Of a stretch of 64,000 nucleotides of DNA, positions 47,398 through 63,038 are shown piece by piece. The translations under genes and the position numbers were made by a program. The DNA comes from Candidatus Avilachnospira sp. (GTDB lineage: Bacteria; Bacillota; Clostridia; Oscillospirales; Oscillospiraceae), in contig JAZNFJ010000083.1 in NCBI GenBank assembly GCA_045589035.1, forward strand, positions 6,551 to 70,550. Direction: 5' to 3'. A model generated the notes under the pieces. The model saw only the letters and a list, made by a program, of their open reading frames with translations. It made no database searches and had not been told where the DNA came from. The first letter of the stretch is position 1; each line of letters starts with the position of its first letter.

Positions 47398-48051
47398 ATG
47401 GTGAAACTCTCTCCCTCTATTCTTGCCGCTGATTTTGTCAATCTGGAACGGGATATCCGTGCTTTGGAACCCGCCGGTGCTGATTATGTTCACATCGATG
47501 TGATGGACGGTATTTTTGTTCCCAATATCTCCATTGGTTTGCCCGTCCTGTCTGCTATTCGGAAGATTTCCAATCTGGTGCTGGACGTACATCTGATGAT
47601 CGACCGCCCCATCCGGTATGTGGAACGTTTCTGTAAGGCCGGCGCCGATCTGGTCACCATCCATGTGGAAGCCGATACAGAAGAAAACACCCTGGAGGCT
47701 TTGAAGATTATCAAGGGCTGCGGTGTTAAAGCCGGTGTGGTCGTCAAGCCCAAAACTCCCGCAGAGGCAGTTCTCCCCTTTATTGATCTTTGTGATTTAA
47801 TTCTGGTTATGACCGTAGAGCCCGGTTTTGGCGGTCAGAGCTTCATGGCTGATATGATGCCCAAGGTCACCAGGCTCCGCGAAATCATCAACGAACGCAA
47901 GCCTGAATGCGAACTGGAAGTTGACGGCGGTGTCAACATCGAAACCGGTAAGATTTGTGTGGAAGCCGGCGCTGATGTTCTCGTCGCAGGCTCTGCCTTC
48001 TTCGGTGCTCCCGACCACAAGGCATTCACCGATGCCATTCACGCCATGTAA
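47398..48051 (+). CDS. rpe: Ribulose-phosphate 3-epimerase
   Basis: MVKLSPSILAADF..., HIDVMDG.FVPN, HLM, MTVEPGFGGQ.F, VDGG. Confidence 0.96.
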   Translation: MVKLSPSILAADFVNLERDIRALEPAGADYVHIDVMDGIFVPNISIGLPVLSAIRKISNLVLDVHLMIDRPIRYVERFCKAGADLVTIHVEADTEENTLEALKIIKGCGVKAGVVVKPKTPAEAVLPFIDLCDLILVMTVEPGFGGQSFMADMMPKVTRLREIINERKPECELEVDGGVNIETGKICVEAGADVLVAGSAFFGAPDHKAFTDAIHAM

Positions 48052-48060
48052 CGAACTTAT

Positions 48061-48096
48061 AAAAAAATCCTGTCTGCATAAGCAGACAGGATTTTT
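48061..48096. terminator. Bidirectional intrinsic terminator (rpe / Dlt-like operon)
   Basis: AAAAAAATCCTGTCTGC ataa GCAGACAGGATTTTT. Confidence 0.85.
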
Positions 48097-48103
48097 CTTT
48101 TCC

Positions 48104-48247
48104 TTAAAATGCTTCATAGATAAACACACCGTTACCGGTGAAATAGATCAGTGCCAGAATCAGCATGACCGCATAAATCAGCAGCTCCAGGATACGACCC
48201 GGAGTTGTCTTCTGAAAAGCTTTCCACTTTTTTACGAAACCAGCCAC
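48104..48247 (-). CDS. dltX: DltX-like micro-protein (47 aa, single TM, C-terminal FIYEAF motif)
   Basis: Own translation from GTG 48247 (GGAGGTGA RBS 7 nt upstream): (M)AGFVKKWKAFQKTTPGRILELLIYAVMLILALIYFTGNGVFIYEAF. Overlaps the DltD-like stop by 16 nt. Not in the ORF track. Confidence 0.7.
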   Translation of the reverse strand: MAGFVKKWKAFQKTTPGRILELLIYAVMLILALIYFTGNGVFIYEAF

Positions 48248-49101
48248 GGATCGATCACCTCCATAAAGCGGTAAGCGCCATACTCATAGTTGAGATGTCC
48301 AATATCATAGAAACAGGGCACGTCCAAAGCTCGCTCCAGATTCAGCAGTTCAATGCCTTTATCGGCACAGATCTCTGCAGCCTGATTGTAAACTGCTCTG
48401 GTTTCCGGAGATATCTCCACCTCCGGATTGACGGGCATCCACACACACCGCAGACGAATTCCGTTCTTTTCGCAGTAATCTGCCACCTTTTCCAGACAGG
48501 ACATATTCTCTTGGAAATCTTCGATCGGCAAGTTTACATAACGCGACGTTTCTATCTTGGCAGCAAGTTCTTCCGAGGACATGGATCCGGTGTAATGGAT
48601 CTTCTGCCGGTCAGAGTGATCCTCCGGCTCCTTGCCTGCCAGTTCTCTTACAGAGTTTTCCAAACACAGGCGAAGCTTGTCCCGCTGAAAATAGGCATAG
48701 GGTTCATACCAGTCCTGATGCCAAGGATAGGTTGGATGGGTCTCAAACTTATCGTAGAGTGTCAAATCGCTAAGTCCAATCACCAGTTCAGACCCAATCT
48801 TAATGTTCCCCTTTTGGATCATCTGCCACAGATCCCTCACAACACCGTAGTCCAGCCCAAGGTTAACATAACCACTCTCGCTAACTTCTTCCCGATAAGC
48901 GGAAATGACCACAGAATTACCAAAGAAAACTTTATCCCAGACCTCTTCCGGATGATCTCTGCGGGTCAGTTCAAAATCGTTGAGCACAAACCGTCCGGAT
49001 TGGATCATGTAGGGTGTAAAAACCGCAGAAAGGAGCAGGTCCAGCGCAATAAATACCGCAACCAAGGCAATCAGCCAGCCGTTCTTCTTCCAAAAAGTCA
49101 T
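48232..49101 (-). CDS. Membrane-anchored SGNH/DltD-like acyl-transfer protein (short form, 289 aa)
   Basis: N-terminal TM (WLIALVAVFIALDLLL), a nucleophile-type block FFGNSVV, and a C-terminal DIGHLN (DxxH). Directly downstream of the MBOAT with a 4-nt overlap. Confidence 0.7.
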   Translation of the reverse strand: MTFWKKNGWLIALVAVFIALDLLLSAVFTPYMIQSGRFVLNDFELTRRDHPEEVWDKVFFGNSVVISAYREEVSESGYVNLGLDYGVVRDLWQMIQKGNIKIGSELVIGLSDLTLYDKFETHPTYPWHQDWYEPYAYFQRDKLRLCLENSVRELAGKEPEDHSDRQKIHYTGSMSSEELAAKIETSRYVNLPIEDFQENMSCLEKVADYCEKNGIRLRCVWMPVNPEVEISPETRAVYNQAAEICADKGIELLNLERALDVPCFYDIGHLNYEYGAYRFMEVIDPWLVS

Positions 49102-50246
49102 AACTTGAAGAACCCCCTAACCGCCTGCAGAATCTGCGTTCCGTTCATAGTGAAGAACATGGCATTAATAGCAAACAGTCCGTTCACAACAACACAGCGC
49201 AGCCAATAAATGTACTTGTTGGTTTTCCGTTTGTCAACCGTGGTCAAACCAAAGATGTTCTCCACAGCCAGGAAGATACCCATGTACACACCGGTTGCCA
49301 GTGCCATCAAATCAAACTCATGCCAAAGGCTCATAACCAGCATGGTGCAAAGACCAATGACTGCAGACAAATATTTGTTCAGCCGCTTTCCGCCGACCAC
49401 AACAAAAATATGTTCCCGGATCCAGTCGCTGAGGGTCACATGCCATTTACGCCAAAACTGGGTAAAGCTGGCAGCCGTCCAGGGTTCCTTGAAGTTTTCC
49501 GGAGCGGGAATCCCCATCAGTGTGCTGACTGCAATGGCCATATCCGCATAGCCCGCCATGTCAAAAAACAGAATCAGGTAACTCAAAACCGCCAGAGCAC
49601 CGCTGACATAGAAATGTGGATACATCTGCAGCACACGGTTCAGCAGCTGCTGTGCAACGGCTGCCAATACCAGTTTTTTGAACATGCCGCGGATAAAACG
49701 CTTGACGCAATCCTGCGCCACAGGTGCAGTCAGAGGCTTAGGGCTGCGATACAGCTTAATGTAATCCCGATAACGATACAAAGGACCGCCGGTTACCACA
49801 GGAAAGAACAGCAGGAAATTGCTGTATGCCAGAAACGGAATATATTCTTCCGTGTAGTAGACATAGAAGACCGCATCCACAGCCTTGAGCATGTTATAAG
49901 AAAAACCAACGAGAACAAACAGCGACGGCAGCCACGCAAAGAATCCAGCAGCACGCACATAGAAGAATGGTGCGACCTGCAGCAGGCACAATGCTACAAA
50001 CCAGAATTTTCTCGCTTTTTTGATTTGTCCCATCAGCTGAACAATCAGCCAGCTGAACACCGCATAAAAGGCATAGAAAACCGCCAACTTCCAATCCACA
50101 TAGATCAGAAGTCCAAGATCAAACACCAAGAGCCAAGGAGTCAGCCGCTTTTCCGGCGCAAATCTCCGCAGCAACGCATTTCCAACAGCAAAGGCCACCG
50201 CCGCTGCCAGCATCAGCAGCAGAGTGTCCGCTTTTAAATACCACAT
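49098..50246 (-). CDS. dltB: MBOAT family O-acyltransferase, DltB-like
   Basis: 382 aa, polytopic. FWRKWHVTLSDW and SLWHEF histidine motifs typical of DltB/AlgI MBOATs. Confidence 0.88.
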   Translation of the reverse strand: MWYLKADTLLLMLAAAVAFAVGNALLRRFAPEKRLTPWLLVFDLGLLIYVDWKLAVFYAFYAVFSWLIVQLMGQIKKARKFWFVALCLLQVAPFFYVRAAGFFAWLPSLFVLVGFSYNMLKAVDAVFYVYYTEEYIPFLAYSNFLLFFPVVTGGPLYRYRDYIKLYRSPKPLTAPVAQDCVKRFIRGMFKKLVLAAVAQQLLNRVLQMYPHFYVSGALAVLSYLILFFDMAGYADMAIAVSTLMGIPAPENFKEPWTAASFTQFWRKWHVTLSDWIREHIFVVVGGKRLNKYLSAVIGLCTMLVMSLWHEFDLMALATGVYMGIFLAVENIFGLTTVDKRKTNKYIYWLRCVVVNGLFAINAMFFTMNGTQILQAVRGFFKL

Positions 50247-50249
50247 CGC

Positions 50250-50498
50250 TTATGCCAGCTTGCGTTCCACCACTTCGGCAATCTCCTCAATGGTGTTCAT
50301 GGAGTAGAGGGTAATATCCTTCTGAGTGATCTGAATGTTGAAGTGGTCCTCCAGGAACAGAACGATCTCTGTCGCACCCAGAGAGTCCACAAAACCGTAA
50401 TCAAACAGATGGACATCGTCGGAAAAATCCGGATCATCGGCTTCAATTTCAAAATGCTCCAGAATATAGTTCCGCAGAACTTCCTTAATGTTTTCCAT
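50250..50498 (-). CDS. dltC: D-alanyl carrier protein-like acyl carrier (DltC-like)
   Basis: 82 aa; phosphopantetheine site FVDSLGATEIVLFLE. Confidence 0.88.
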   Translation of the reverse strand: MENIKEVLRNYILEHFEIEADDPDFSDDVHLFDYGFVDSLGATEIVLFLEDHFNIQITQKDITLYSMNTIEEIAEVVERKLA

Positions 50499-50513
50499 AG
50501 TTTATTCCTCTTT

Positions 50514-50987
50514 TCAAAGATATTTACAGCACAGCGTGCCAATAGGCTCCATGCCCTGTTTTTTCCAAAATTCCTGAGCATTGGCATTCTTGCCCAGCAC
50601 CTGCAGTTCCATGGTGCTGATTCCCTGCTCTTTCAGCCAGTCTTCTGCATAGGTCGTCAGCTTCTGCGCCAGACCCTGATGACGGGCTTCCGGTGCAACA
50701 TAGAGATCGTTTAGATAACCAACACTACTTTCGCCTTTACACAGATACTCCGGTGCAAGACGCAAAATGGAACAAAACACAAATCCGCGAAGCGCACCGG
50801 TTTCGTCTTCCGCAACAGCCGTCAAAATGAGTCTGGAGCGAATACGGGTTTCCATCACACGAGGCAAGACATCTTCATTGAGATCATAGTTCATGCCCAC
50901 GTCCAGAAGTCCCCGGTGATAGTCACGATAAAGGTAAAGCAGGGCTTCCAGATCCTCAGCCCTTCCCTGCCGGATGGACAAATTCAT
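50514..50987 (-). CDS. GNAT family N-acetyltransferase
   Basis: MNLSIRQGRAEDLEAL..., acetyl-CoA motif LYVAPEARHQGLAQKL. ATG 50987 sits 5 nt after GAGGTGG. The ORF track starts at GTG 50996. Confidence 0.85.
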   Translation of the reverse strand: MNLSIRQGRAEDLEALLYLYRDYHRGLLDVGMNYDLNEDVLPRVMETRIRSRLILTAVAEDETGALRGFVFCSILRLAPEYLCKGESSVGYLNDLYVAPEARHQGLAQKLTTYAEDWLKEQGISTMELQVLGKNANAQEFWKKQGMEPIGTLCCKYL

Positions 50988-50997
50988 AACCGCCACC

Positions 50998-52509
50998 TCA
51001 CAGTGTTGCCTTCAATGCCACACGGTCAATCTTGCGGTTGGCATTGAGTGGGAATTCTTCCATGCAGACCACCTTACCGGGCAGCATGTACTTGGGAATC
51101 TGCTTGCCCAGTTCCAGGTTTACCATGCGCTTATTCAGTTTCTCTTTCGTTTCCACAAAGAGAACAATCTGCTCATTGGGCGCATCAAACACAGCGCAGG
51201 CGTTGGTCAGACCGGCAATGGTACGGGCAGCATTTTCAATGTCCCCCATTTCAATACGGTTGCCCCGCAGCTTGATCTGGCTGTCCTTACGGCCCACATA
51301 TTGGATCAAGCCGTCTGCTTCCTTGTAAGCCAGATCACCTGTATGATACAGTTCCTCATAAAATGCCTTGTTAAGGGGATTGGCAGTAAATGCCTTTGCC
51401 GTTTCCTCCGGTGCATTCCAATAACCAAGCGCCAGCTGGCTTCCAATGACGCACAATTCGCCGGTTTCACCAACGCTGGCTTCGGTACCGTCATCCCGCA
51501 GGATCAGCACACGCATATTGTGCCGCTCATAACCGATGGGCAACGGATCGTTATCCGCAAACTCCCGATCCACCATATAACAAGTGCAATCCACAGTTAT
51601 CTCCGTAGGACCGTAGAGATTGGAGTACAAGCAATCCGGCAGTGCCTTTCGCCACATATTCAGCTGCCTGTTGGGCATGACCTCACCGGCAAAAACAACC
51701 GTTTTCAAATCCGGAAGTTCCATGGTTTCCAGTACACCGCAGTTGGCAACACTGTTCATGACTGTCGGCACCCAGAATACGCAGGTCACCTGCTTCTCCT
51801 TCACAAACTCCATGAGCTTGATGGGGTACATAAACAGAATCTCCGGAATAATCAGCACCTTTGCACCCTTCAACACAGAAGCATACAGGTCAAAGACGGA
51901 ATTATCAAAATGGAAACCGGACTGCAGACCCATAACCGTTTCATTCGTAATGGAATAGGTGTCGGCAATGTATTCTGCATAGTCCAGAACGCCGCGGTGA
52001 GGAATAACGACACCCTTGGGTACACCAGTAGAGCCAGAGGTATACATAATATATGCAGGATCGGTATCGATGGTATCGATCATTGCGGTATTGACAGCGG
52101 TTTCATCTTCTGCTTCTACGGCTAAGTTTACATAATCAACAACTACGCAGCTTTCCAAGGAAAGATCTGCCAGTTTGCTTCTCCCCTCTTCATCGGTAAT
52201 CAGAACGGGAGGCTGCAAATTGTCCAGTGTACGGCGAATGCGCTCAGCAGGCGCGGTAAAATCCAGCGGAGAATACGGAACACCACAATAGAGAGCCGCA
52301 TAAAAACTCACAACGGAAGCATTGCTCTTGGGCAGATAAACTGCCACAGGCTGTCCCCGCTTCACACCCATGCGAAGCAGAGCAGTTGCCACAGATCGTG
52401 CCTCTGCACGAAGCTGTGTATAGGTCAATTCACCGTTATTGTCTTCCAAGGCAATATGATCGGGAAACTTTCTGGCAGCAGCTTCCAGCATACAAGCTAC
52501 AGAATTCAT
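50998..52509 (-). CDS. DltA-family amino-acid adenylating enzyme, paralog 2 (AMP-binding)
   Basis: YIMYTSGSTGVPKG, FHFDNSVFD, NLYGPTE, GELCVIG, YHTGDLA, GRKDSQIKLRGNRIEMGDIE, NANRKIDR. Confidence 0.88.
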   Translation of the reverse strand: MNSVACMLEAAARKFPDHIALEDNNGELTYTQLRAEARSVATALLRMGVKRGQPVAVYLPKSNASVVSFYAALYCGVPYSPLDFTAPAERIRRTLDNLQPPVLITDEEGRSKLADLSLESCVVVDYVNLAVEAEDETAVNTAMIDTIDTDPAYIMYTSGSTGVPKGVVIPHRGVLDYAEYIADTYSITNETVMGLQSGFHFDNSVFDLYASVLKGAKVLIIPEILFMYPIKLMEFVKEKQVTCVFWVPTVMNSVANCGVLETMELPDLKTVVFAGEVMPNRQLNMWRKALPDCLYSNLYGPTEITVDCTCYMVDREFADNDPLPIGYERHNMRVLILRDDGTEASVGETGELCVIGSQLALGYWNAPEETAKAFTANPLNKAFYEELYHTGDLAYKEADGLIQYVGRKDSQIKLRGNRIEMGDIENAARTIAGLTNACAVFDAPNEQIVLFVETKEKLNKRMVNLELGKQIPKYMLPGKVVCMEEFPLNANRKIDRVALKATL

Positions 52510-54038
52510 CAGAGTTCTCCTTTCAGCTGCTTTTTCAGCCGTACACGGTCGATCTTGTCATTGGCCGTGTGGGGCAGTTTTTCCATGGGGAAGAGTTTGC
52601 CCGGCAGCATATACTGAGGGATGTGCTTTTTTAGTTCCAGATTAAAACGGCGCAGAGGCAATGTCCCCTGGGTTTCCACAAACAGCGCAATCAGTTCATT
52701 TTCCTCATCAAAAATCGCGGCTGCATTTTCCACGCCTTCCACGGTCATGGCTGCCGTTTCGATCTCACCCAGTTCGATACGGTTACCCTTCAGTTTAATC
52801 TGATTGTCTTTACGGCCACAGAACTGGATCAGGCCATCCTGATCCCAATAGGCCAGATCACCGGTGCGGTACATACGCTCTTTATAAGCACCTGCAAGAG
52901 GATTCTGCACAAAGACCTTGGCAGTAATTTCCGGATTGTTCCAGTAGCCCAGAGCCACACCGCTGCCAATGACACACAGTTCGCCCTGCTCGCCGACCTT
53001 TGCGGCTTTGTTGTCTTCCGTCAGGATAACCACACGCATGTTTTCGCATGCCTTTCCAATGGGCAGAGGATCTGCATCGGCATAGGGACGATCCACGATG
53101 TAATAGCAGCAAACATCTGTAATTTCCGTTGGGCCGTAGAGGTTGGCATAGGTACAATGGGGCAGATACTTCCGCCAGACATTCAGCTGCTTATTGGGCA
53201 TGACCTCACCGCAGAAAGCCACATTTTTCAGCTTCGGCAGCTGTACCGTTTCCAGAATACCGGAATTGGCAACATTGATCATAACAGTCGGCACCCAGAA
53301 GATGGATGTAACCTCTTTCTCTGCCAGAAATTCCGGCAAACGCACAGGGAACATCATCAGCACATCCGGGATCAAGATCAACTTACCACCGCACAAAAGG
53401 CTGCCGTAAATATCAAAAGTAGAGTTATCAAAATAGAATGGCGCCTGATTGGCCATAACCGTTTCTTCGTCAAACCGGAAGGTATCCACCACCCAATGGG
53501 CATAGTCGATAATGCCTCTGTGAGGGATGGTCACACCCTTCGGCGTACCGGTAGAACCGGAGGTGTACATGATATAAATAGGATCGCTGTCTACCACTTT
53601 AGCCAGAGCGGTATCCACAAGAAGATCATCAGCCGTTGCTGTCAGAAGTTCTTCTATCAGTACCACACGGGCATTCCCAATAACACAATTCTCCAGATTT
53701 GCAGTCAACTCTCCGTTGGTAACAATCAAGGAAGGCTCCAGACTCTCCACGATCTTTTCCAGACGGTTCATGGGAATATGGCTGTCTACCGGCGCATAAG
53801 GAGAACCGGCATACATGGCGCCCATAAAGCCGCAAAGCATATCCACACTTTTGGGAAGATAAAAGATGATCGGCTTTCTGTTGGAGCCGCAGCGCAGCAA
53901 TTCCGAGGCAACAGCTCTGGAAATTGCACGATATGCGCCATAGTTCAACAGCTTTGCTTCATCTTCCACTGCCGGACGGTTTACAAACAGTTTTGCAGCC
54001 CGTTCCAGTAGACAAACAGCAGAATTCATAGGATTCAC
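52509..54038 (-). CDS. DltA-family amino-acid adenylating enzyme, paralog 1 (AMP-binding)
   Basis: YIMYTSGSTGTPKG, FYFDNSTFD, NLYGPTE, GELCVIG, YRTGDLA, GRKDNQIKLKGNRIELGEIE, TANDKIDR. 1-nt overlap with paralog 2 and 4-nt overlap with the lipoprotein gene. Confidence 0.88.
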   Translation of the reverse strand: MNPMNSAVCLLERAAKLFVNRPAVEDEAKLLNYGAYRAISRAVASELLRCGSNRKPIIFYLPKSVDMLCGFMGAMYAGSPYAPVDSHIPMNRLEKIVESLEPSLIVTNGELTANLENCVIGNARVVLIEELLTATADDLLVDTALAKVVDSDPIYIMYTSGSTGTPKGVTIPHRGIIDYAHWVVDTFRFDEETVMANQAPFYFDNSTFDIYGSLLCGGKLILIPDVLMMFPVRLPEFLAEKEVTSIFWVPTVMINVANSGILETVQLPKLKNVAFCGEVMPNKQLNVWRKYLPHCTYANLYGPTEITDVCCYYIVDRPYADADPLPIGKACENMRVVILTEDNKAAKVGEQGELCVIGSGVALGYWNNPEITAKVFVQNPLAGAYKERMYRTGDLAYWDQDGLIQFCGRKDNQIKLKGNRIELGEIETAAMTVEGVENAAAIFDEENELIALFVETQGTLPLRRFNLELKKHIPQYMLPGKLFPMEKLPHTANDKIDRVRLKKQLKGEL

Positions 54039-57000
54039 TCCTCAATCTTTCTAAGTTGCAATGTGACAGCTTCACCATAATGGGTAAATACTGTATAAGT
54101 TTCTCGTTCTGTGATGATCCAGTCAGCACTGTCCGTAGTGTAACCGGGTTCGGTCATCACCTGCTGCATACCTGTGTCCAGAAATGCAATTTCGGCCGCA
54201 CCTTCCGACACGGTAATATCCGCCGGCAGATTGACCTGCCGCAGAGGAGAGGCATCAGCCTCCATCTGAGAAACGGTCACACCGTCATCCAGGCTAAAGA
54301 ACAGGCTGTTGTCCTCCCGGTGCCAGACCTTTGCATTGACAGAATAGGAATTTGTATCCACATTCTCTGCAAATTCCATCTCGATGCCAAGAGCATTCTG
54401 CACATCGTCATTGTACAGAACTCCGTCCTGGGAGAGAGTTGCAGGTGTTAATGTCAGAACGCCATTCTGGTTCTCCACAAACACATCCAAATTTCTAGAG
54501 GCAGCAGATGCCTTCATCATCTGGTCTTCCCGCAAAAAGTTATACCCGTTTTGATGCTGGAAATTAAAAGCTTTTTGGACAAAATCCCTTGCACCGGCAT
54601 CATTCTCATAGCAGAAATCGCAATGGTAATACAGACAGATGGGCATATCGTATTTTGCAGAAATATCACTCCACACAGTATCCGCATAAAGGAAAACGGA
54701 ATTGTTTTGCACCAAAAGGGTATCCTTCCCTTCTCTTTGAAGGAAGAACGGAAGTGCAATCACATTCTCCGCAGCGTACTGGGGTGCGGCACCGGGATCA
54801 CCGGGAGAAGAGAATCCGGAGTTCCAAAGAAGTCCTGCGTCAAACTCTGCATCAAATGTTAGAGTATCACCCAGTGTGCTGGTATACCATGTATGCATAT
54901 TGGCGCCGATACCCTCTGTCTTCACACCGAAGTCAGCAAAGGCTTCCTTATGGCGCCGCAGTTCGTAATCTTCTCTCTCCCGAGAGGCATAGGCATTGCT
55001 ATAATGATGAATACCCAAATACTGGTAATTCTCCCGGGCATAGTCAAACTGCGCCTGCAGTTCCCCCCGATAAGGGAAATACTCCGAATCAATGGGATAA
55101 GCCAGACCATATTCCAGAGAGCCGCAAACCAGATCTTCCGCATCATCTCCATCTACATCAAAGAAGGCTGGAACACAATAATTGCCAAATTTATCACGGG
55201 CGTTACCCTTGTAGTTCATTTCATTTAACTCAATATAGCCATGGTGGATCATCTCACCATTGACACTATTGAGAAGCAGTGCAATGTAGCCATCAAATGT
55301 GCCGACAGCCAGATCCAAAAGACCATCCTTGTTCCAGTCAACCACAGCAGGTGCCAGGAATTTTCCATAGCCCTCATTGGTGCAAAGTTTGGAATAACTT
55401 TCCATGGATCTCCAGTTAAAGGCAATACCGGCATTGGTCTGCTGTCCGTAATACACAAGCAGAACCCCCTGATCGCTGCCAACAGCCAGATCGGTAATTC
55501 CATCACCGTTGAGATCACCAACTGCAGGCAGACTTTGGCCGGGAATATCCGTATATAGCAGAACTCCTTGGTTTACATAACCATTATCGCTACTGACGAA
55601 CCAATATATATTTCCGTCTGCAGAACCTGTCAGCAAATCCAATCTTCCGTCGCCGTTCAGATCCATCATCTGCGGAGCAGAGAAGCCGGAAACCTGTACA
55701 CCGTCCAATTTCTGAGCAGCAGAAACATGAAGGCGGTCTGAATAATTCAAATCATCATAGACATAGATGCAGCCGTCATAAGAGCCGCTGAGCAGCTCCA
55801 CTTCCCCATCACCGTCCACATCCGCAAAACAGGGATAGGCGCGGTAATTATATTCGGGATATTCCCGGAAGTAACTGCCGGCATCTTCGATTTTGCCAAG
55901 GCTCAGCCACTGTCCGTCGCTGACGATATGAGTACCGGAAGAATAAGCACTTTCCTCAAAATCCATGCTGAAATCAAAACCGTCAGCAGATTGGTTTTTC
56001 AGATAATTGATACTTTCTGCACGCAAAAACCACCAATAACTATTGCGAATAATGGTATAGGATGGGATCTGCTGATACGCCCGGCAGATGTCATCAAAGA
56101 CCTTCATGGCATTGTTTGCGTAAGCAGTAATTTCCTCATAGTGCAGTTCCCAAGCCATGGAGGGACTGCCATAGTAACCGTAGACACGATTGAGTGCATA
56201 GCCATATTTTTGCTTTGCCGCATAGGCTGCAAAACGGCTGAGCAAAAGTTGGTTGCAGGAAGCGGTTGTGGATGCAAATGCCGTTTCCCCTTCTTCACGG
56301 TGGGTCATGGCATAATTGCCAAGAGAAAAAATATTAGGCAAAAGCGGATTTGTTAACATAACTCCGCCATTTCCGTACTTATGGAAAGTATAAATTGCCA
56401 ATCCGTTCCAATCCGCCATGGATACGGCTGTGTCAGATACAAAACCGCAGCCATAATCCTGCTTTAACAGGATTTCAGCTTCGTAATATTCCGGATAAAG
56501 GGCTGCAAAATCTGCCACAACCTGCTGGATCTGACCAAGATCTGCCCCAACTTCCGGATAGGTCATGTCCAGAGGACAGCCAGCCAGCTTTTTAACCTCA
56601 GAGATACCAAGATAGTCCATGGGCATAATCTGAGCAAACGAATTGTCCAGCAAGACAAAACCACCCTGCTCGGTATATGCCACCAGATCCGCAGACAGCA
56701 TATCCATATAAGCGGACTGTGTCAATTCCGCATCAGGGATAACCACATCAAAACCGGAAAGATCATACTCCCCGGATACATCAATCGCTTCGGCTCTGAT
56801 ACCCAGCAAAATAGATTGTTCCAAAAGATCCATTGTATCCTGCCAGCGAATGCTGTCGATTGTGCTATCATAAATAACCGCCACAGAAATTCCATAATCA
56901 GAAGAAACTTCCGGTAAAGCTTCTACCGCAGTAGGACGGGAAATAACTTCTACCGGCTTCTCCTCAACCTTGGCGCAACCGACAAACAGGCTCACAAACA

Positions 57001-57046
57001 GGCTGACAGAAACCATCAACCAGAGTAATCTTTTCACCAAATTCAT
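54035..57046 (-). CDS. Large (1003 aa) lipoprotein with a central block of FG-GAP/VCBS-type repeats
   Basis: Lipobox LFVG-C at residue 24. Five repeats: DVDGDGEVELLSGSYDGCIYVY, DLNGDGRLDLLTGSADGNIYWF, DLNGDGITDLAVGSDQGVLLVYY, DWNKDGLLDLAVGTFDGYIALL, DVDGDDAEDLVCGS (about nt 55097-55834). Confidence 0.8.
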   Translation of the reverse strand: MNLVKRLLWLMVSVSLFVSLFVGCAKVEEKPVEVISRPTAVEALPEVSSDYGISVAVIYDSTIDSIRWQDTMDLLEQSILLGIRAEAIDVSGEYDLSGFDVVIPDAELTQSAYMDMLSADLVAYTEQGGFVLLDNSFAQIMPMDYLGISEVKKLAGCPLDMTYPEVGADLGQIQQVVADFAALYPEYYEAEILLKQDYGCGFVSDTAVSMADWNGLAIYTFHKYGNGGVMLTNPLLPNIFSLGNYAMTHREEGETAFASTTASCNQLLLSRFAAYAAKQKYGYALNRVYGYYGSPSMAWELHYEEITAYANNAMKVFDDICRAYQQIPSYTIIRNSYWWFLRAESINYLKNQSADGFDFSMDFEESAYSSGTHIVSDGQWLSLGKIEDAGSYFREYPEYNYRAYPCFADVDGDGEVELLSGSYDGCIYVYDDLNYSDRLHVSAAQKLDGVQVSGFSAPQMMDLNGDGRLDLLTGSADGNIYWFVSSDNGYVNQGVLLYTDIPGQSLPAVGDLNGDGITDLAVGSDQGVLLVYYGQQTNAGIAFNWRSMESYSKLCTNEGYGKFLAPAVVDWNKDGLLDLAVGTFDGYIALLLNSVNGEMIHHGYIELNEMNYKGNARDKFGNYCVPAFFDVDGDDAEDLVCGSLEYGLAYPIDSEYFPYRGELQAQFDYARENYQYLGIHHYSNAYASREREDYELRRHKEAFADFGVKTEGIGANMHTWYTSTLGDTLTFDAEFDAGLLWNSGFSSPGDPGAAPQYAAENVIALPFFLQREGKDTLLVQNNSVFLYADTVWSDISAKYDMPICLYYHCDFCYENDAGARDFVQKAFNFQHQNGYNFLREDQMMKASAASRNLDVFVENQNGVLTLTPATLSQDGVLYNDDVQNALGIEMEFAENVDTNSYSVNAKVWHREDNSLFFSLDDGVTVSQMEADASPLRQVNLPADITVSEGAAEIAFLDTGMQQVMTEPGYTTDSADWIITERETYTVFTHYGEAVTLQLRKIEE

Positions 57047-57089
57047 ACCTCCAATGGGTACACTTGGACATAATAACCCAATATGTAGT

Positions 57090-57118
57090 ATTATACCAAT
57101 TATCTATTGCATTTGCAA
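57090..57118 (-). promoter_or_regulatory. Putative sigma-A promoter of the Dlt-like operon
   Basis: Minus strand: TTGCAA (57118-57113), 17-nt spacer, TATAAT (57095-57090). About 40 nt upstream of the lipoprotein ATG. Confidence 0.5.
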
Positions 57119-57126
57119 GCCTTTAC

Positions 57127-57160
57127 AAAAAAACGCAGGAGATCAAATCTCCTGCGTTTT
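57127..57160 (-). terminator. Intrinsic terminator after the LtaS-family gene
   Basis: ACGCAGGAGAT caa ATCTCCTGCGT, followed by TTTTTTT on the minus strand. Confidence 0.8.
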
Positions 57161-57166
57161 GATAGA

Positions 57167-59716
57167 TTAACCAAGGGGGTCCGGTGGTGGAATCCAAGGA
57201 ACTTCCTCTTCAACCTCAACTTCCGGTTCAGGCGCAGGTTCGGGTTCCGGCTGCGGCTGGGGTGTCCAGACAGGCTTTGGAGGTTCAGGTGCAAAGGTCA
57301 GAGGATCCAGAGCATCCCGATCCATCAGCATGGCAACCAACCATGCGGCAGCACCACGGGACAATGTATTCCGTTTACCGGTATATCCATCCTCTTTCTG
57401 TTTCTTCAAAGCATCATTGACAGCAGATTCGATCCACTCTTCCTCACAAGCGCGGGTCAGAATGGTCTTCGCTTCTTCCACCGTGATATGATCCATCGGA
57501 CGGAACTTGGTGTTCTTTGCAATCAAGCCAGCCTCGATTGCTGCGTTGAGAATGTCATGATACCAGATGTCCTCATCTACATCCTCGAAGATATGACTGC
57601 CGCCGCTTCCTATCAAACCCTTGGCTCTGGTGACCATCGCAACAAAGTCTGCACGGGTGGCAGGATGCTTACCATTGAACAGACCGGAGGAAACACCACT
57701 GAGTGCACCGTAAGACGTCAGAAGCTCCACAGCCTGCTCATACCATGTACCCGGAATGTCCGCATAGCTGGCAACCGTTTCCAGTTCCTCACGGCCATGT
57801 GACAACGCAAGAGATTGGAAAGCGAAGTCGTAGTAGTCTGTATCCAGTATCGCGGCAGATACTGCAAATTGATCCGAGGCATACTGCAGCAGCTTTTCAG
57901 CCAGAGCGGGATCTTCCTCCCCTGTCCATGTAAACCGGTCAGTATTGGCATCATAGACCACTTCCTCAGTCAGGAAACTTCCATCTTTCAGCAGAGCCAT
58001 GTGAGTCGTATCTGCCAGCACATCCCGACCGGTCAAGAGTCTGGAATCATACGCAAAACCCATCAGGTTTAAAATCGTCGGCAGGATATCCATGGTGCAG
58101 CAGTAATCATCAACGATGATGGGCTCATCCAGACTGCCTGTCCAACAAAGGAAGCTGTTCTTATACTGCCAGAACGGCTTTTTAATCTCCTCATCTCCAG
58201 CCAGTTCTTTGTAAGCAGCCTCCGGAAGACCGTATGGCAGATGGTCCCCTGTCAGAACAACAAGCGTACGATCAGCAAGTCCCTCTTTTTCAAGACGCTC
58301 CAACAGATGTGCCATGGCCTGTTCCAGTTCAAACTGGCAGGCTATGTAAGCCTTAACCGTTTTGGAATAGGGCAGCTTCTCCACCAAAGACTTATTCTTT
58401 GCAGACATATCATTGGTTTCAAAGTCATAATCTGAATGACCGGAATAGGTCATATAATAGGCATGAAATGGCTCATTTGTCAGATAATCATCCATGGTCT
58501 CTTCGATCATTTCCAGATCAGAAGTGGGGGTACCCGGCTCCATCTCCAAGCCAAAATCCACAGCACGGAAATCATAACCCATATTGCTGTGAGTGTTAAC
58601 GCGGTTGTAGAAAGTACCCGTGTTGTTGTGATAAGCCAAAGCTACCATGCCATTATCAGAACAAATATTGCCCAGAGCATAGGGCAAGTAGTTCTCAGTA
58701 GAGACCGCGAAACTCATACGGCTCAGATCCGGCATCAAGCCCATGCACAGGCTGTATTCGCCGTTTGTGGTCAAATTCGGAAAACTGTTGTAGAAGTTAT
58801 TAAAAACAATCCCCTCATTGGACATCCGGTAAAGGGTTGGTGTCAGCTGTGGATCAATCAGATAGTTAGAAAATGCCTCTGCACAGACCACGATCAGATT
58901 GTAGCCCTCAAACATCCCAGTATACGAATTCTTTGCGGTCGGAGACAGGGATGCAAAATAACGGTTCAGGTTATCCAATGCAGGATCATCCGTTTTGCTG
59001 TTCAGCACATCGAAATCCATTTCCGGAAGAATATTCCACCAGTCCGGATCGTCAATGTGCAGTTCATCGCCACTGCCAAGGACAGCAACAGCCCCTCCTC
59101 CCTGCCGTTTCAAATCCAAAACTTCAGAAGTGATAAAGCCAAAATGCTCCGCCCATCGATCAATTGTTGTTGCAGGATTTCGCAGCAAAGCAGCTGGCTG
59201 ATTAGGCGCACTGCCGTAGGCCGGCAAACACATCATCACACCAAAGAAAATGTACATAGCAGAAACGAGCAACGCAATAAGTATCTTCCAATGATACTCT
59301 CCTCGGGGCAAAATGCGTTTATACCGAAGGATGTAAAACAGAATCAAAGGAACAAAAATCAGCAGCAGCTGAGGCAGCCTGCGCCACATTGCGGCGAACA
59401 TAATATTTGAGAATGTTGCAACCGCATCTCCACCGGCAGACACAAAAGCCAACGATAAGAATGAACCAAAGATTTCATAATAGACCAGCTGCACTGCATA
59501 TACCAATGCTAAAACCGACGGAACAATCCAACCAAAGATGCGTCCGGCCCACCCGGGCAAATGCACCAAAACGGTCAGAACCGCAGCATACGCCAGCGTG
59601 AAGCCCAAACCGGGCAAAAATCGAACGATGTCGGAACAAGCAGTCCAATACAAATTCAATTCCCAGATCAGAAGAACCGCAAACCAATACAGCGGGACAA
59701 AAAATGATCGTTTCAA
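57167..59716 (-). CDS. LTA synthase (LtaS) family sulfatase-like transferase with C-terminal SLH domains and a Pro/Glu-rich tail
   Basis: Five N-terminal TM segments. Sulfatase-fold core (NLIVVCAEAFS, NLTTNGEY, TYSGHSDY, VLTGDHLPYG). Last ~200 aa carry SLH-like repeats (YADIPGTWYEQAVELLTSYGALSG..., FEDVDEDIWYHDILNAAIEAGLI...). Tail is PQPQPEPEPAPEPEVEVEEE. TTG start 8 nt after GGGAGG. Confidence 0.82.
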   Translation of the reverse strand: MKRSFFVPLYWFAVLLIWELNLYWTACSDIVRFLPGLGFTLAYAAVLTVLVHLPGWAGRIFGWIVPSVLALVYAVQLVYYEIFGSFLSLAFVSAGGDAVATFSNIMFAAMWRRLPQLLLIFVPLILFYILRYKRILPRGEYHWKILIALLVSAMYIFFGVMMCLPAYGSAPNQPAALLRNPATTIDRWAEHFGFITSEVLDLKRQGGGAVAVLGSGDELHIDDPDWWNILPEMDFDVLNSKTDDPALDNLNRYFASLSPTAKNSYTGMFEGYNLIVVCAEAFSNYLIDPQLTPTLYRMSNEGIVFNNFYNSFPNLTTNGEYSLCMGLMPDLSRMSFAVSTENYLPYALGNICSDNGMVALAYHNNTGTFYNRVNTHSNMGYDFRAVDFGLEMEPGTPTSDLEMIEETMDDYLTNEPFHAYYMTYSGHSDYDFETNDMSAKNKSLVEKLPYSKTVKAYIACQFELEQAMAHLLERLEKEGLADRTLVVLTGDHLPYGLPEAAYKELAGDEEIKKPFWQYKNSFLCWTGSLDEPIIVDDYCCTMDILPTILNLMGFAYDSRLLTGRDVLADTTHMALLKDGSFLTEEVVYDANTDRFTWTGEEDPALAEKLLQYASDQFAVSAAILDTDYYDFAFQSLALSHGREELETVASYADIPGTWYEQAVELLTSYGALSGVSSGLFNGKHPATRADFVAMVTRAKGLIGSGGSHIFEDVDEDIWYHDILNAAIEAGLIAKNTKFRPMDHITVEEAKTILTRACEEEWIESAVNDALKKQKEDGYTGKRNTLSRGAAAWLVAMLMDRDALDPLTFAPEPPKPVWTPQPQPEPEPAPEPEVEVEEEVPWIPPPDPLG

Positions 59717-59849: not shown

Positions 59850-59857
59850 AAATTGTG

Positions 59858-60520
59858 TTACAATCCCAAATGGGATTCCAGCTCTTCAAAACTGTCACTG
59901 AGGAAATCAGCACCGGCTGCAAGAAGCTGCTCCCGGCTGCGATAACCCCATGTGACACCGGCTGCCACAAAGCCCATTTTGGATGCAAATTCCATATCTG
60001 TATCTCCATCACCGACGAAGAGAATCTCTTCTGGCTTCAGACCGAGCGTTTCACAGGCCAGATATCCAGCCTCCAATGCCGGTTTCAAGGGACGCTGACC
60101 GTTATTGCCCCAAATAAATTTCCAATCGTAACCAGAAAAATAGTGGGACATGATTTTATTGCTGGTTTTCTCCGTTTTATTAGAGATCACAGCCAATGCC
60201 ATGCCCTTCCCTGTCAGCTTATCCAAAAAATGCTGTACACCGGGGAAATAGGATGTGTGAACGCAGCAATTTTCCGGATAATAACCCTGATACACACTGT
60301 TGACCTTAACCACTTCTTCGTCCGTCACACCTTCCGGCATGGCAGAACGCAGCAGATTCTTTACGCCGTGACCAACTTTTGCACGGTACTTCTCAATCGG
60401 ATACTCCGGATAGCCAAATTGGCACAGGGCGAAATTCGCACCTGTGCCAATATCGGCTATGGTATCCAAAAGAGTGCCGTCCAGATCAAAGATCACGGCT
60501 TTGATCTTTTGGAAATCCAT
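59858..60520 (-). CDS. HAD-IA family hydrolase (phosphoglycolate phosphatase-like)
   Basis: MDFQKIKAVIFDLDGTLLDT (DxDGT)..., ISNK, GDGDTD. Confidence 0.88.
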   Translation of the reverse strand: MDFQKIKAVIFDLDGTLLDTIADIGTGANFALCQFGYPEYPIEKYRAKVGHGVKNLLRSAMPEGVTDEEVVKVNSVYQGYYPENCCVHTSYFPGVQHFLDKLTGKGMALAVISNKTEKTSNKIMSHYFSGYDWKFIWGNNGQRPLKPALEAGYLACETLGLKPEEILFVGDGDTDMEFASKMGFVAAGVTWGYRSREQLLAAGADFLSDSFEELESHLGL

Positions 60521-60526
60521 CAGAGA

Positions 60527-63001: not shown

Positions 63002-63038
63002 AGTGTTTGACTTCCTTTCTTTATGTTGATTTAATTTT

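What the first reader, a model, noticed from the sequence alone, without database searches (positions are those of the whole stretch)
48104..57118. Non-canonical eight-gene Dlt-like cell-envelope aminoacylation operon (lipoprotein-A1-A2-GNAT-C-B-SGNH-X)
Seen: eight co-directional ORFs lie between a TTGCAA-17-TATAAT promoter (57090-57118) and a strong terminator (48061-48096). Junctions are 1-, 4- or 16-nt overlaps or gaps of 16 nt or less, so they are almost certainly co-translated. The core Dlt machinery is all present. It includes a carrier protein with a DSLG serine and an MBOAT with WHxxLS and LWHE histidines. There is also a TM-anchored SGNH-like protein and a DltX-like micro-protein ending in FIYEAF. 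Known: the canonical operon is dltX-A-B-C-D with a single D-Ala ligase. This locus differs in four ways. The gene order is scrambled with dltX last. There are two diverged adenylating enzymes. A GNAT acetyltransferase sits between them and the carrier. A 1003-aa FG-GAP lipoprotein is the translationally coupled first cistron. Inference: this may be an uncharacterised variant that installs two different aminoacyl esters, an N-acetyl-aminoacyl ester or a dipeptidyl ester on a wall or teichoic-type polymer. That polymer could be the product of the adjacent LtaS-SLH enzyme.
Basis: partly seen in the sequence, partly recalled or inferred. Interest (0 to 1): 0.8.

Follow-up and report, generated by a model that had tools for sequence, protein, structure and literature searches.

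The report
Dlt-like cell-envelope aminoacylation operon variant
An eight-gene operon in an uncultured gut Clostridium is a relative of the machinery that puts D-alanine on Gram-positive cell walls, but it carries two different amino-acid-activating enzymes, an acetyltransferase and a giant surface lipoprotein; related forms of it occur in 74 uncultured gut species, and I found no study of it.

Summary
Eight tightly packed minus-strand genes lie between a promoter-like site and a strong terminator. They encode an FG-GAP lipoprotein, two adenylating enzymes (55% identical), a GNAT, a carrier protein, a DltB-like MBOAT, a TM-anchored SGNH-fold protein and a 47-aa microprotein ending in FIYEAF (the FxYxxF acyl-shuttle motif).

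It works like Dlt but is not canonical Dlt:
- Every Dlt-specific HMM is missed or falls below its cutoff.
- Both adenylation pockets differ from the conserved DltA D-Ala pocket at 7 of 8 variable positions.

Related loci in 74 uncultured gut Clostridia species show three things:
- The lipoprotein is a core partner. It is present in 25 of 32 complete loci and co-varies with the microprotein.
- The GNAT is accessory (12 of 32).
- The A-enzymes (1-3 copies) fall into old paralog clades, each with its own fixed pocket code.

An LtaS-like/SLH gene is adjacent here and sits inside the operon in two distant species.

Most likely this is a carrier-protein to MBOAT to Tyr-microprotein to SGNH relay that esterifies an envelope glycopolymer with two different amino acids, probably not D-Ala. 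The substrates, the acceptor and the roles of the GNAT and lipoprotein are inferred, not shown. I rate it a new variant of a known kind; I found no literature on it.

The parts
57090..57118 (-). Promoter-like site TTGCAA-17-TATAAT with an extended-10 TG, 44 nt upstream of the first ORF
   Evidence: 10/12 match, TG present. This is a consensus match only. It sits just after the upstream gene's terminator.
54035..57046 (-). Lipoprotein of 1003 aa (likely start GTG 57037, 1000 aa). It has a signal peptide and lipobox Cys24, a flexible tether, an N-terminal alpha/beta domain (~50-290), and an FG-GAP beta-propeller (~404-651). The propeller is inserted in an alpha/beta region (~283-400 plus 655-860) that carries an invariant His/Glu/Cys/Asp cluster. 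The C-terminus is beta-sandwich.
   Evidence: Present in 25 of 32 complete related loci and co-varies with X.
52509..54038 (-). A1, a stand-alone amino-acid adenylating enzyme of the alpha clade (likely start ATG 54029). Pocket code DNFFACLDVK. Asp204 is the alpha-amino anchor and Lys495 is the A10 lysine.
50998..52509 (-). A2, a paralogous adenylating enzyme of the beta clade, 55% identical to A1. Pocket code DNFFVALVDK is invariant in all 15 full-length beta orthologs that carry it (one beta-clade member reads DNLFLALVDK). All core motifs are intact.
50514..50996 (-). GNAT acetyltransferase (likely start ATG 50987, 157 aa). It has no signal peptide or TM helix and carries the acetyl-CoA motif R-H-Q-G-L-A at residue 105.
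   Evidence: Present in 12 of 32 complete related loci.
50250..50498 (-). Carrier protein of 82 aa, with phosphopantetheine attachment at Ser39 in DSLG. It is the only carrier in the operon.
49098..50246 (-). DltB-like MBOAT of 382 aa, with His269 (WHVTLS) and His309 (LWHE). It has no fused C-terminal shuttle motif.
   Evidence: (TIGR04091: 157 bits, cutoff 375).
48232..49101 (-). TM-anchored SGNH-fold acyltransferase-like protein of 289 aa (a 'mini-DltD'). Invariant residues are Ser63 (FFGNS), Asn225, Asp266 and His269 (DxxH).
   Evidence: An MBOAT-SGNH fusion exists (P0270).
48104..48247 (-). DltX-like membrane microprotein of 47 aa. It has one TM helix and a C-terminal FIYEAF (FxYxxF) with Tyr44.
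   Evidence: No DltX HMM hit.
48063..48096 (.). Intrinsic terminator: a perfect 17-bp hairpin with U-runs on both sides. It is shared with the convergent rpe gene.
   Evidence: -25.7 kcal/mol, z -7.1.
57167..59716 (-). Neighbouring LtaS-like sulfatase-family enzyme with multiple N-terminal TM helices, an SLH domain and a Pro/Glu-rich tail. It is a separate transcript here, but a candidate maker or modifier of the acceptor polymer.
   Evidence: Adjacent in L007-L010 and the ninth cistron after X in L013/L015.
57131..57158 (-). Terminator of the LtaS-SLH gene. It separates that gene from the operon promoter.
   Evidence: -20.6 kcal/mol, z -5.2.

Best explanation
This is a lineage-specific, uncharacterised variant of the Dlt pathway. 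It is a carrier-protein-dependent acyl relay that esterifies an extracytoplasmic envelope polymer with amino acids.

Proposed steps:
1. In the cytoplasm, A1 and A2 each adenylate an alpha-amino acid and thioesterify it to Ser39-phosphopantetheine of the single carrier protein. That they are amino-acid adenylating enzymes is shown by family membership. That they use different, probably non-D-Ala, substrates is inferred from the pocket codes.
2. The GNAT uses acetyl-CoA, most likely to N-acetylate the tethered aminoacyl unit. This is inferred and is the weakest step.
3. The DltB-like MBOAT takes the acyl group from the carrier through its His funnel and passes it to Tyr44 of the FIYEAF tail of the 47-aa microprotein on the outer face. 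This is inferred by analogy with DltB/DltX; the motifs are present.
4. The microprotein hands the acyl group to Ser63 of the TM-anchored SGNH protein, which esterifies a hydroxyl of the acceptor (inferred).
5. The FG-GAP lipoprotein, tethered to the outer leaflet, acts as an obligate extracellular partner. It may bind or position the acceptor glycopolymer, or act as a second enzyme (esterase/transferase), much as DltE joins DltD and DltX in Lactiplantibacillus plantarum (inferred).
6. The acceptor is most likely a glycopolymer made or modified by the LtaS-like/SLH enzyme (inferred from gene linkage).
For: All relay parts are present and tightly coupled.

Evidence for the relay:
- The MBOAT matches only DltB among solved structures, with both histidines aligned.
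- The SGNH fold and an invariant Ser/Asn/Asp/His set are present.
- The FxYxxF tail is conserved as F[IL]YE[AG]F in orthologs.
- An MBOAT-SGNH fusion protein exists.

Evidence that the module is a functional unit:
- It keeps its composition while its flanks change. In one case it sits between a relaxase and a recombinase.
- It is found in 74 species loci.

Evidence that the two A-enzymes differ in substrate:
- A1 and A2 keep Asp235, Lys517 and motifs A3-A10.
- Their codes are DNFFACLDVK and DNFFVALVDK. Each is fixed within its clade across orthologs down to ~59-64% identity.
- The clades are old.
- The real DltA code, read from structures 3e7w, 3dhv and 7vhv, is DLMT[M/L/F]CTVAK. It shares only Cys301 with A1 and only Val330 with A2 among the 8 variable positions.

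Evidence for the partners:
- The lipoprotein is in 25 of 32 complete loci. It is present whenever X is, apart from one locus that has X alone.
- The LtaS-like/SLH gene is operonic in L013/L015 and adjacent in the Avilachnospira loci.
- DltE gives a precedent for an extra extracellular partner (PMC13653941).
Against: - No biochemical data exist. The organism is uncultured, and every relative found is a MAG or a metagenome contig.
- Specificity codes do not name the substrates. A1 keeps the Cys301 that DltA also has, so D-Ala is not excluded.
- The GNAT is missing from 20 of 32 complete loci, so it is not needed for the relay.
- The LtaS-like gene is linked in only 5 of 32 complete loci and is a separate transcript in this window.
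- Eighteen related loci lack both the microprotein and the lipoprotein within 10 kb. The model does not explain this.
- The lipoprotein's non-propeller domains match no known family by sequence.
Confidence: 0.6

Rival explanations
1. This is simply the lineage's ordinary D-alanylation (Dlt) system, much diverged in sequence. A1 and A2 both activate D-Ala and are redundant or differentially regulated. The GNAT and lipoprotein are lineage-specific add-ons that do not change the chemistry.
For: - All five Dlt roles are filled.
- DltA, DltB and DltC models are among the best-named hits.
- A1 keeps Cys at code position 301, as DltA does.
- I could not search these genomes for a second, canonical dlt operon, so this could be their only one.
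Against: - DltA equivalog scores are 310 and 296 bits against a cutoff of 560. DltB scores 157 against 375. DltC scores 25-32 against 52-68. There is no DltD or DltX hit.
- The pockets differ from the conserved DltA pocket at 7 of 8 variable positions. An Asp sits where DltA has Val330 (A1) or Ala331 (A2).
- Paralog clades hold different fixed codes over long divergence, which redundancy does not predict.
- Other loci carry further codes, including DSTKLGLDVK, which I recall as an Asp/Asn-like signature.
Confidence: 0.2
2. The relay is real, but the acceptor is not a teichoic-type polymer. It is instead the FG-GAP lipoprotein itself, another surface protein, or a membrane lipid.
For: - The lipoprotein is the most tightly co-inherited non-core part and co-varies with the acyl-shuttle microprotein.
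- The LtaS-like gene is linked in only a minority of loci.
- From my own knowledge, not checked here: the Bordetella dra (dlt-like) locus was reported to modify a protease-susceptible outer-membrane component.
Against: - Known MBOAT-SGNH pairs acylate glycopolymers (PMC12148441).
- The lipoprotein has an invariant His/Glu/Cys/Asp cluster typical of an active or binding site rather than of a passive substrate.
- The LtaS-like/SLH gene is translationally coupled after X in two distant species.
Confidence: 0.12
3. Rival for the GNAT step only. Either the GNAT is a regulator that acetylates the catalytic A10 lysine of A1/A2, as Pat/AcuA do for AMP-forming synthetases. Or it loads acetyl from acetyl-CoA onto the carrier protein, as GNAT loading domains of polyketide synthases do, so that the relay delivers O-acetyl as well as aminoacyl groups.
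For: - It is a small cytoplasmic acetyl-CoA-type GNAT (RxxGxA motif). It lies directly between the A genes and the carrier gene.
- Its accessory distribution fits a modulator.
- The A10 region reads PHTANDK/PLNANRK, a PxxxxxK context.
- The precedents are from my own knowledge and were not checked here.
Against: - It has no specific similarity to Pat/AcuA or to loading-module GNATs. The best named hits are weak and generic: AAC(6'), RimI and diamine acetyltransferases.
- It evolves faster than the A-enzymes (46-83% against 64-92% identity in the same loci).
Confidence: 0.3
4. The cluster makes a secreted or cell-bound small molecule (an NRPS-independent aminoacyl natural product) rather than modifying the envelope.
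For: It has stand-alone A-enzymes, a carrier and a tailoring GNAT. NRPS adenylation domains are the closest solved structures by sequence.
Against: - There is no condensation, thioesterase or reductase domain.
- The DltB-like MBOAT, the FxYxxF microprotein and the membrane-anchored SGNH protein form a trans-membrane acyl relay.
- The operon sits in a housekeeping chromosomal context with matching GC content.
Confidence: 0.03

Closest known systems
DltXABCD D-alanylation pathway of Bacillota (DltA ligase, DltC carrier, DltB MBOAT, DltX microprotein, DltD SGNH transferase)
   Same: - The same five roles are present: a stand-alone adenylating enzyme, a small carrier with a DSxx serine, an MBOAT of DltB size with both histidines, a separate microprotein with C-terminal FxYxxF, and a TM-anchored SGNH protein.
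- The MBOAT lacks the fused shuttle helices, as DltB does.
   Different: - The gene order is lipoprotein-A-A-GNAT-C-B-D-X rather than X-A-B-C-D.
- There are two paralogous A-enzymes whose pocket codes are unlike DltA.
- The SGNH protein is about 100 aa shorter than DltD and is missed by DltD models. The microprotein is missed by DltX models.
- All Dlt equivalog scores are below cutoff.
- A GNAT and a 1000-aa FG-GAP lipoprotein are added.
Lactiplantibacillus plantarum dlt operon with DltE (PMC13653941)
   Same: An extra extracellular protein encoded with the dlt genes joins a DltD-DltX interaction network. This is a precedent for a lineage-specific outer partner such as the lipoprotein.
   Different: DltE is described as an LTA D-Ala esterase. 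The lipoprotein here is an FG-GAP propeller protein with unassigned flanking domains and no detectable homology to a known esterase.
Acyl-CoA-dependent MBOAT-SGNH polymer O-acetyltransferases (PatA/PatB and related systems; PMC12148441)
   Same: An MBOAT plus SGNH pair, and a Tyr in FxYxxF as the acyl shuttle. PatB is among the structural matches of the SGNH protein.
   Different: Those systems use acetyl-CoA, have no carrier protein or adenylating enzyme, and carry the shuttle motif fused to the MBOAT C-terminus. Here the donor is a carrier protein and the shuttle is a separate microprotein.
Vibrio cholerae AlmEFG glycine/diglycine modification of lipid A (my own knowledge, not checked here)
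   Same: A DltA-like ligase and a DltC-like carrier are used to attach an amino acid other than D-Ala to an envelope molecule.
   Different: As I recall it, the transferase AlmG is a cytoplasmic-face lipid A acyltransferase homolog, not an MBOAT/SGNH/microprotein relay. There is a single A-enzyme and no GNAT or lipoprotein.

Membership tests
Dlt pathway: DltA (D-alanine--D-alanyl carrier protein ligase) | Scores above the DltA equivalog model cutoff (TIGR01734, 559.85 bits; NF003417, 476 bits) | tested here: not met
   A1 scores 309.9 and 322.4 bits. A2 scores 295.7 and 301.6 bits.
Dlt pathway: DltA | D-Ala binding pocket as in solved DltA structures (code D L M T [M/L/F] C T V A K) | tested here: not met
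   A1 is DNFFACLDVK and A2 is DNFFVALVDK. Each has one match among the 8 variable positions. Positions were mapped by motif anchoring, not by structure.
Dlt pathway: DltA | Activates D-alanine | not testable with these tools
   Needs ATP-PPi exchange or carrier-loading assays.
Amino-acid adenylation domain (TIGR01733) | Scores above cutoff (317.4 bits) and keeps the Asp235 alpha-amino anchor, the A10 Lys and core motifs A3-A8 | tested here: met
   352.4 bits (A1) and 358.0 bits (A2). Motifs are intact in all four clades.
Dlt pathway: DltC | Small carrier protein with a phosphopantetheinyl serine that scores above the DltC models (52-68 bits) | tested here: not met
   PP-binding is met (39.9 bits, cutoff 20.8) and Ser39 lies in DSLG. 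The DltC models score only 25.1 and 32.3 bits. It is a carrier protein, but not a recognisable DltC.
Dlt pathway: DltB | MBOAT with the two conserved histidines and no fused shuttle motif; scores above TIGR04091 (375 bits) | tested here: inconclusive
   The MBOAT Pfam model is met (83.3 bits). DltB is the only solved homolog, and both histidines align with it. TIGR04091 scores 156.7 bits, below cutoff.
Dlt pathway: DltD | N-terminally anchored extracellular SGNH-fold protein with a Ser-His-Asp triad; matched by DltD family models | tested here: inconclusive
   The fold and anchor are met: AF2 pLDDT 94.5, and DltD structures 3bma, 7dxm and 6o93 are hit at E 4e-4 to 1e-3, TM 0.32-0.45. Ser63, Asp266 and His269 are invariant. 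No DltD model hit appears even at E <= 10. The protein is 289 aa, against ~390 aa for DltD.
Dlt pathway: DltX | Single-pass membrane microprotein ending in the FxYxxF acyl-shuttle motif | tested here: met
   It is 47 aa with a hydrophobic helix and a C-terminal FIYEAF. The motif definition comes from PMC12148441. It is conserved in orthologs. No family model hit was found.
Dlt pathway: operon organisation | dltX-A-B-C-D order with a single ligase | tested here: not met
   The order here is lipoprotein-A-A-GNAT-C-B-D-X.
Bacterial MBOAT-SGNH polymer acyltransferases (general class) | MBOAT plus SGNH partner plus a Tyr shuttle motif | tested here: met
   An MBOAT-SGNH fusion also exists in the family.
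GNAT acetyltransferases (PF00583) | Scores above the Pfam cutoff and carries the acetyl-CoA binding motif R/Q-x-x-G-x-G/A | tested here: met
   56.5 bits against a cutoff of 20.7. RHQGLA lies at residue 105. No specific subfamily reached its cutoff.
LtaS lipoteichoic acid synthase (neighbouring gene) | Scores above NF053595 (970 bits) | tested here: not met
   95.7 bits. Only the Sulfatase-family and SLH Pfam domains are met.
Bacterial lipoproteins | Signal peptide with a lipobox cysteine | tested here: met
   The sequence reads LFVGC with Cys24, which is >=90% conserved in 26 homologs. The residue at -3 is Phe rather than Leu.

The most novel reading that the evidence does not exclude
This would be a modular, 'programmable' envelope aminoacylation platform. 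Interchangeable A-enzyme paralogs, with at least six distinct pocket codes across the family, would load different non-D-Ala amino acids onto one carrier. Here two different residues would be loaded, one perhaps N-acetylated by the GNAT. A DltB/DltX/SGNH relay would install them on a glycopolymer made by the LtaS-like/SLH enzyme. The FG-GAP lipoprotein would be a new extracellular enzyme that completes or edits the transfer. This would be the first enzymology for non-alanine aminoacyl esters on Gram-positive wall polymers.
Probability: 0.25. Interest if true: 0.8.

Novelty: new variant of a known kind. Interest (0 to 1): 0.62.

Why it matters
D-alanylation by Dlt is the textbook way Gram-positive bacteria tune surface charge, resistance to antimicrobial peptides and host signalling. 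Its outer steps (the DltX tyrosine shuttle) were worked out only recently.

This locus shows the same relay logic reused with different adenylating enzymes, in one to three copies, each copy type with its own conserved pocket. A large conserved surface lipoprotein is added. The systems occur in abundant but uncultured gut Clostridia.

If the substrates differ from D-Ala, this family would explain how other ester-linked amino acids reach wall polymers. It would also give a compact operon (about 9 kb) to express heterologously and test.

In one relative the module lies between a relaxase gene and a serine-recombinase gene, which suggests it can move between genomes as a fitness cassette.

Tried and rejected
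- **Exact-protein look-ups.** Look-ups of the window's MBOAT and SGNH proteins found no contig on record. The source organism was therefore inferred only from the closest GTDB loci (Ca. Avilachnospira, 78-87% identity).
- **Carrier protein as an ornithine-lipid ACP.** Its best NCBIfam hit, 'ACP for OlsHI ornithine lipid', scores 49 bits against a cutoff of 130. It belongs to a planctomycete GH3-like pathway (PMC12493201). I rejected it as generic carrier similarity.
- **Lipoprotein non-propeller domains.** Pfam on three segments at E <= 10 gave nothing. phmmer and a 13-sequence profile against PDB sequences gave nothing credible; the multicopper-oxidase match at E 0.015 covers only a short 'yyHC' stretch. 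Foldseek on the whole model is dominated by propellers and by GH42-domain-B/STM3548-like hits to the N-terminal domain. I had no structure jobs left to search the split alpha/beta region alone.
- **PADLOC defence models.** No hits.
- **Conserved flanking genes such as racemases or aminotransferases.** Clustering of the flanks gave only local synteny. One 'aminotransferase cluster' turned out to be a clustering artefact.
- **GNAT homolog search.** It returned only operon orthologs (>=52% identity), so it says nothing about where the GNAT came from.
- **Naming the substrates from the codes.** The resemblances are partial: the tail of A2's code is like Ser/Orn codes, and A1 has an Asp at position 330. 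They rest on codes recalled from memory, so I make no call.
- **Dipeptidyl-ester reading.** Rejected for lack of any condensation domain.

Full report

Yes. Eight minus-strand ORFs occupy 48104-57046. Recomputed junctions are overlaps of 4, 1, 4 and 16 nt and gaps of 1, 15 and 3 nt.

Ribosome-binding-site spacing and the NCBI versions of the proteins suggest slightly later starts for three genes:
- lipoprotein at GTG 57037
- A1 at ATG 54029
- GNAT at ATG 50987

These leave only short gaps.

The promoter-like site TTGCAA-17-TATAAT with an extended-10 TG is present, but it is only a consensus match. The downstream hairpin folds at -25.7 kcal/mol (z -7.1) and is shared with the convergent rpe gene. 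The upstream LtaS-like gene ends in its own terminator (-20.6 kcal/mol, z -5.2) just before the promoter, so in this genome it is a separate transcript.

Operon GC (48.2%) equals window GC (49.0%). The surroundings are housekeeping and sporulation genes (his, ruvB, feoB, tgt, dxs, spoIIIA, addAB, rpe), so this is a resident chromosomal operon.

**2. What the parts are**

*Lipoprotein.* It has a signal peptide with Cys24, which is >=90% conserved, and FG-GAP repeats. Its AF2 model (pLDDT 88.8, pTM 0.85) shows a tether, an N-terminal alpha/beta domain and a beta-propeller at about residues 404-651. The propeller is inserted in an alpha/beta region, and the C-terminus is beta-sandwich.

Foldseek returns integrin-type propellers, plus GH42-domain-B/STM3548-like hits for the N-terminal domain. 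Outside the propeller there is an invariant cluster: H302, E304, H373, H680, R691, E692, E695, N716, H718, H808, C809 and D810. It looks like an active or binding site, but it matches no family by sequence.

*A1 and A2.* They are 55% identical. Both exceed the amino-acid-adenylation cutoff and fall far short of the DltA cutoffs. NRPS A-domains and DltA are about equally distant from them.

*Other parts.*
- The GNAT is a plain acetyl-CoA-type enzyme with no specific subfamily.
- The carrier has Ser39 in DSLG.
- The MBOAT matches only DltB among solved proteins, and both catalytic-funnel histidines align with it. It scores 157 bits against the DltB cutoff of 375.
- The 289-aa protein has no hit in the local Pfam copy; in the database's precomputed annotations some of its homologs carry PF27429 (named LB_356), a weak hit. 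AF2 (pLDDT 94.5) gives an N-terminal TM helix and an SGNH fold. It matches GDSL esterases, DltD (3bma, 7dxm, 6o93) and PatB. G61, S63, N225, D266 and H269 are invariant.
- The 47-aa protein ends in FIYEAF. That is the FxYxxF acyl-shuttle motif defined for DltX and for the C-termini of other MBOATs (PMC12148441). No DltX model detects it.

**3. Comparative evidence**

The SGNH-like protein is a good marker for the family. In 1.84 billion representative proteins only 43 clusters match at E <= 1e-30 and 72 at E <= 1e-10, followed by a sharp drop. One member is a 717-aa MBOAT-SGNH fusion.

A scan of one genome per GTDB species found 74 loci. All are uncultured gut Clostridia: Ca. Avilachnospira (78-87% identity, the closest), Avoscillospira, Scatomorpha, Ornithomonoglobus, Hominilimicola and Oscillospiraceae. 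The identical eight-gene module also occurs in metagenome contigs with quite different flanks. A seven-gene form lies between relaxase/MobC genes and a serine-recombinase gene.

A census finds five architectures:
- lipoprotein-A-A-GNAT-C-B-SGNH-X (this window)
- the same with one A
- the same without the GNAT, or with a GNAT after X
- A-A-C-B-SGNH-X-lipoprotein
- forms with three A genes

Counts in the 32 species loci with complete flanks:

| Part | Loci with it |
|---|---|
| Carrier | 32 |
| MBOAT | 32 |
| Microprotein X | 26 |
| Lipoprotein | 25 |
| GNAT | 12 |
| Two or more A genes | 19 |
| LtaS-like gene | 5 |

The lipoprotein and X occur together in 25 loci, are both absent in 6, and X occurs alone in 1. 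The six loci lacking both resemble the X-less A-A-PCP-MBOAT-SGNH group and may be a single lineage (not checked), so this is not an independent-events statistic.

So the lipoprotein is a core partner that keeps its linkage even when the operon is rearranged. The GNAT is accessory.

**4. The A-enzymes**

I mapped the ten specificity-code positions by motif anchoring. A1-type enzymes (alpha clade, present in nearly every complete locus) read DNFF[A/S/V/L]CLDVK. Window A2 (beta clade) reads DNFFVALVDK, identical in 15 of the 16 full-length beta-clade enzymes recovered, down to 59% overall identity; the exception, L071, reads DNLFLALVDK.

Further clades have their own codes:
- DNFFLAMDIK (gamma)
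- DAFFT[VI]LVAK (delta)
- DVMYAALDVK (Scatomorpha)
- singletons such as DSTKLGLDVK

A neighbour-joining tree places beta, gamma and delta as old paralog lineages, not recent tandem copies of alpha. All clades keep motifs A3-A10, including the A10 lysine. A1 and A2 orthologs diverge at similar rates.

The true DltA code, read from solved structures of three species, is DLMT[M/L/F]CTVAK. A1 shares only Cys301 with it among the 8 variable positions, and A2 shares only Val330. An Asp replaces DltA's Val330 in A1 and Ala331 in A2.

This pattern is what two enzymes with different, conserved substrates would show. It is not what redundancy would show. It does not tell us which amino acids are used.

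**5. The LtaS-like/SLH neighbour**

It is a sulfatase-family membrane enzyme with an SLH domain. It scores far below the LtaS equivalog cutoff. A homolog lies upstream in four Avilachnospira loci.

More tellingly, a homolog starts 1 nt after the X stop codon in L015 (SLH domain present). In L013 its longest ORF overlaps the end of X (no SLH detected). No terminator was detected between X and this gene in L013; L015 was not scanned.

Linkage in two different arrangements supports a functional tie in the two-A-plus-GNAT subgroup. It holds for a minority of loci.

**6. Mechanism**

The best-supported model is a Dlt-type relay:
1. A1 and A2 load two amino acids on the single carrier.
2. The MBOAT passes the acyl group to Tyr44 of the microprotein.
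3. The microprotein passes it to Ser63 of the SGNH protein.
4. The SGNH protein esterifies an envelope glycopolymer.

The lipoprotein would be an obligate outer partner. A precedent is DltE, which joins DltD and DltX in L. plantarum (PMC13653941).

What is shown: the presence, conservation and coupling of all parts, their catalytic residues and motifs, and the distinct conserved pocket codes.

What is inferred: every chemical step, the substrates, the acceptor, and the roles of the GNAT and lipoprotein. For the GNAT I rank the options as follows, none tested:
1. N-acetylation of the tethered aminoacyl unit
2. regulatory acetylation of the A10 lysine
3. acetyl loading of the carrier

**7. Membership and novelty**

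It works like Dlt, but strict membership fails. The DltA, DltB and DltC models score below cutoff, there is no DltD or DltX model hit, and the pocket and gene order both differ.

It does meet the broader definition of an MBOAT-SGNH acyl-shuttle system, uniquely combined with a carrier-protein donor, as in Dlt.

Seven literature searches found no description of the architecture. Source annotations give only 'VCBS/FG-GAP repeat protein' or nothing.

I rate it a new variant of a known kind, with interest about 0.6. It is specific, conserved, experimentally tractable and relevant to gut commensal envelopes. However, its distinguishing chemistry is still an inference.

**8. Unexplained**

Eighteen related loci (A-A-C-B-SGNH) have neither the microprotein nor the lipoprotein within 10 kb. 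In 11 of these, a DUF805 membrane protein follows the SGNH gene.

Noticed in passing
L022, L033, L047 (4557-4982), L060, L075, L079 and others: Eighteen related loci (A-A-PCP-MBOAT-SGNH, mostly Ca. Ornithomonoglobus-type) lack both the FxYxxF microprotein and the FG-GAP lipoprotein within 10 kb. In 11 of them a ~140-aa DUF805 membrane protein follows the SGNH gene; in L047 it starts at the SGNH stop codon. It might replace the shuttle.
   Followed up: partly
L004 924-13128; L005: The seven-gene form of the module (one A-enzyme) lies between HTH/MobC/relaxase genes and a serine-recombinase gene. That suggests carriage on a mobilisable integrative element.
   Followed up: no
P0270 (717 aa, representative library): A single protein fuses an MBOAT domain (residues ~134-340) to the SGNH-like domain (418-708). 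This gives Rosetta-stone support for their partnership, unless it is a gene-calling artefact.
   Followed up: partly
L006 11086-13049: In one relative the module is followed directly by a BlaI/BlaR1-type pair (Penicillinase_R, Peptidase_M56). This could be an envelope-stress or antibiotic-sensing regulator.
   Followed up: no
L069 second A gene; L029 A gene: Some relatives carry outlier pocket codes. L069 reads DSTKLGLDVK, which I recall as an Asp/Asn-like 'TK' signature. L029 reads EMLFMSIFIK, with Glu instead of the usual Asp235. Both hint at wider substrate diversity in the family.
   Followed up: no
window 48063-48096: The operon terminator is a perfect palindrome flanked by A- and T-runs. 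It lies 11 nt after the stop of the convergent ribulose-phosphate 3-epimerase gene (47398-48051), so it probably terminates both transcripts.
   Followed up: yes
window 48205-49209, 49320-50237, 50974-52125, 53157-54011 (+); 59855-63010 (+): Long antisense ORFs of 284-1051 aa shadow the real minus-strand genes. The 1051-aa ORF has no Pfam hit and lies opposite the E1 dehydrogenase gene. These are very likely non-coding frame artefacts.
   Followed up: partly
window 60527-63001 (-): An 824-aa protein fuses the E1_dh domain with Transket_pyr and Transketolase_C, that is the alpha and beta subunits of a 2-oxoacid dehydrogenase E1 in one chain. A dihydrolipoamide-dehydrogenase-like gene is next to it at 63039-63977.
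   Followed up: no
window 57167-57420 (C-terminus of the LtaS-SLH protein): The LtaS-like/SLH protein ends in a Pro/Glu-rich low-complexity tail (PEPPKPVWTPQPQPEPEPAPEPEVEVEEE...). This looks like a wall-spanning spacer.
   Followed up: no
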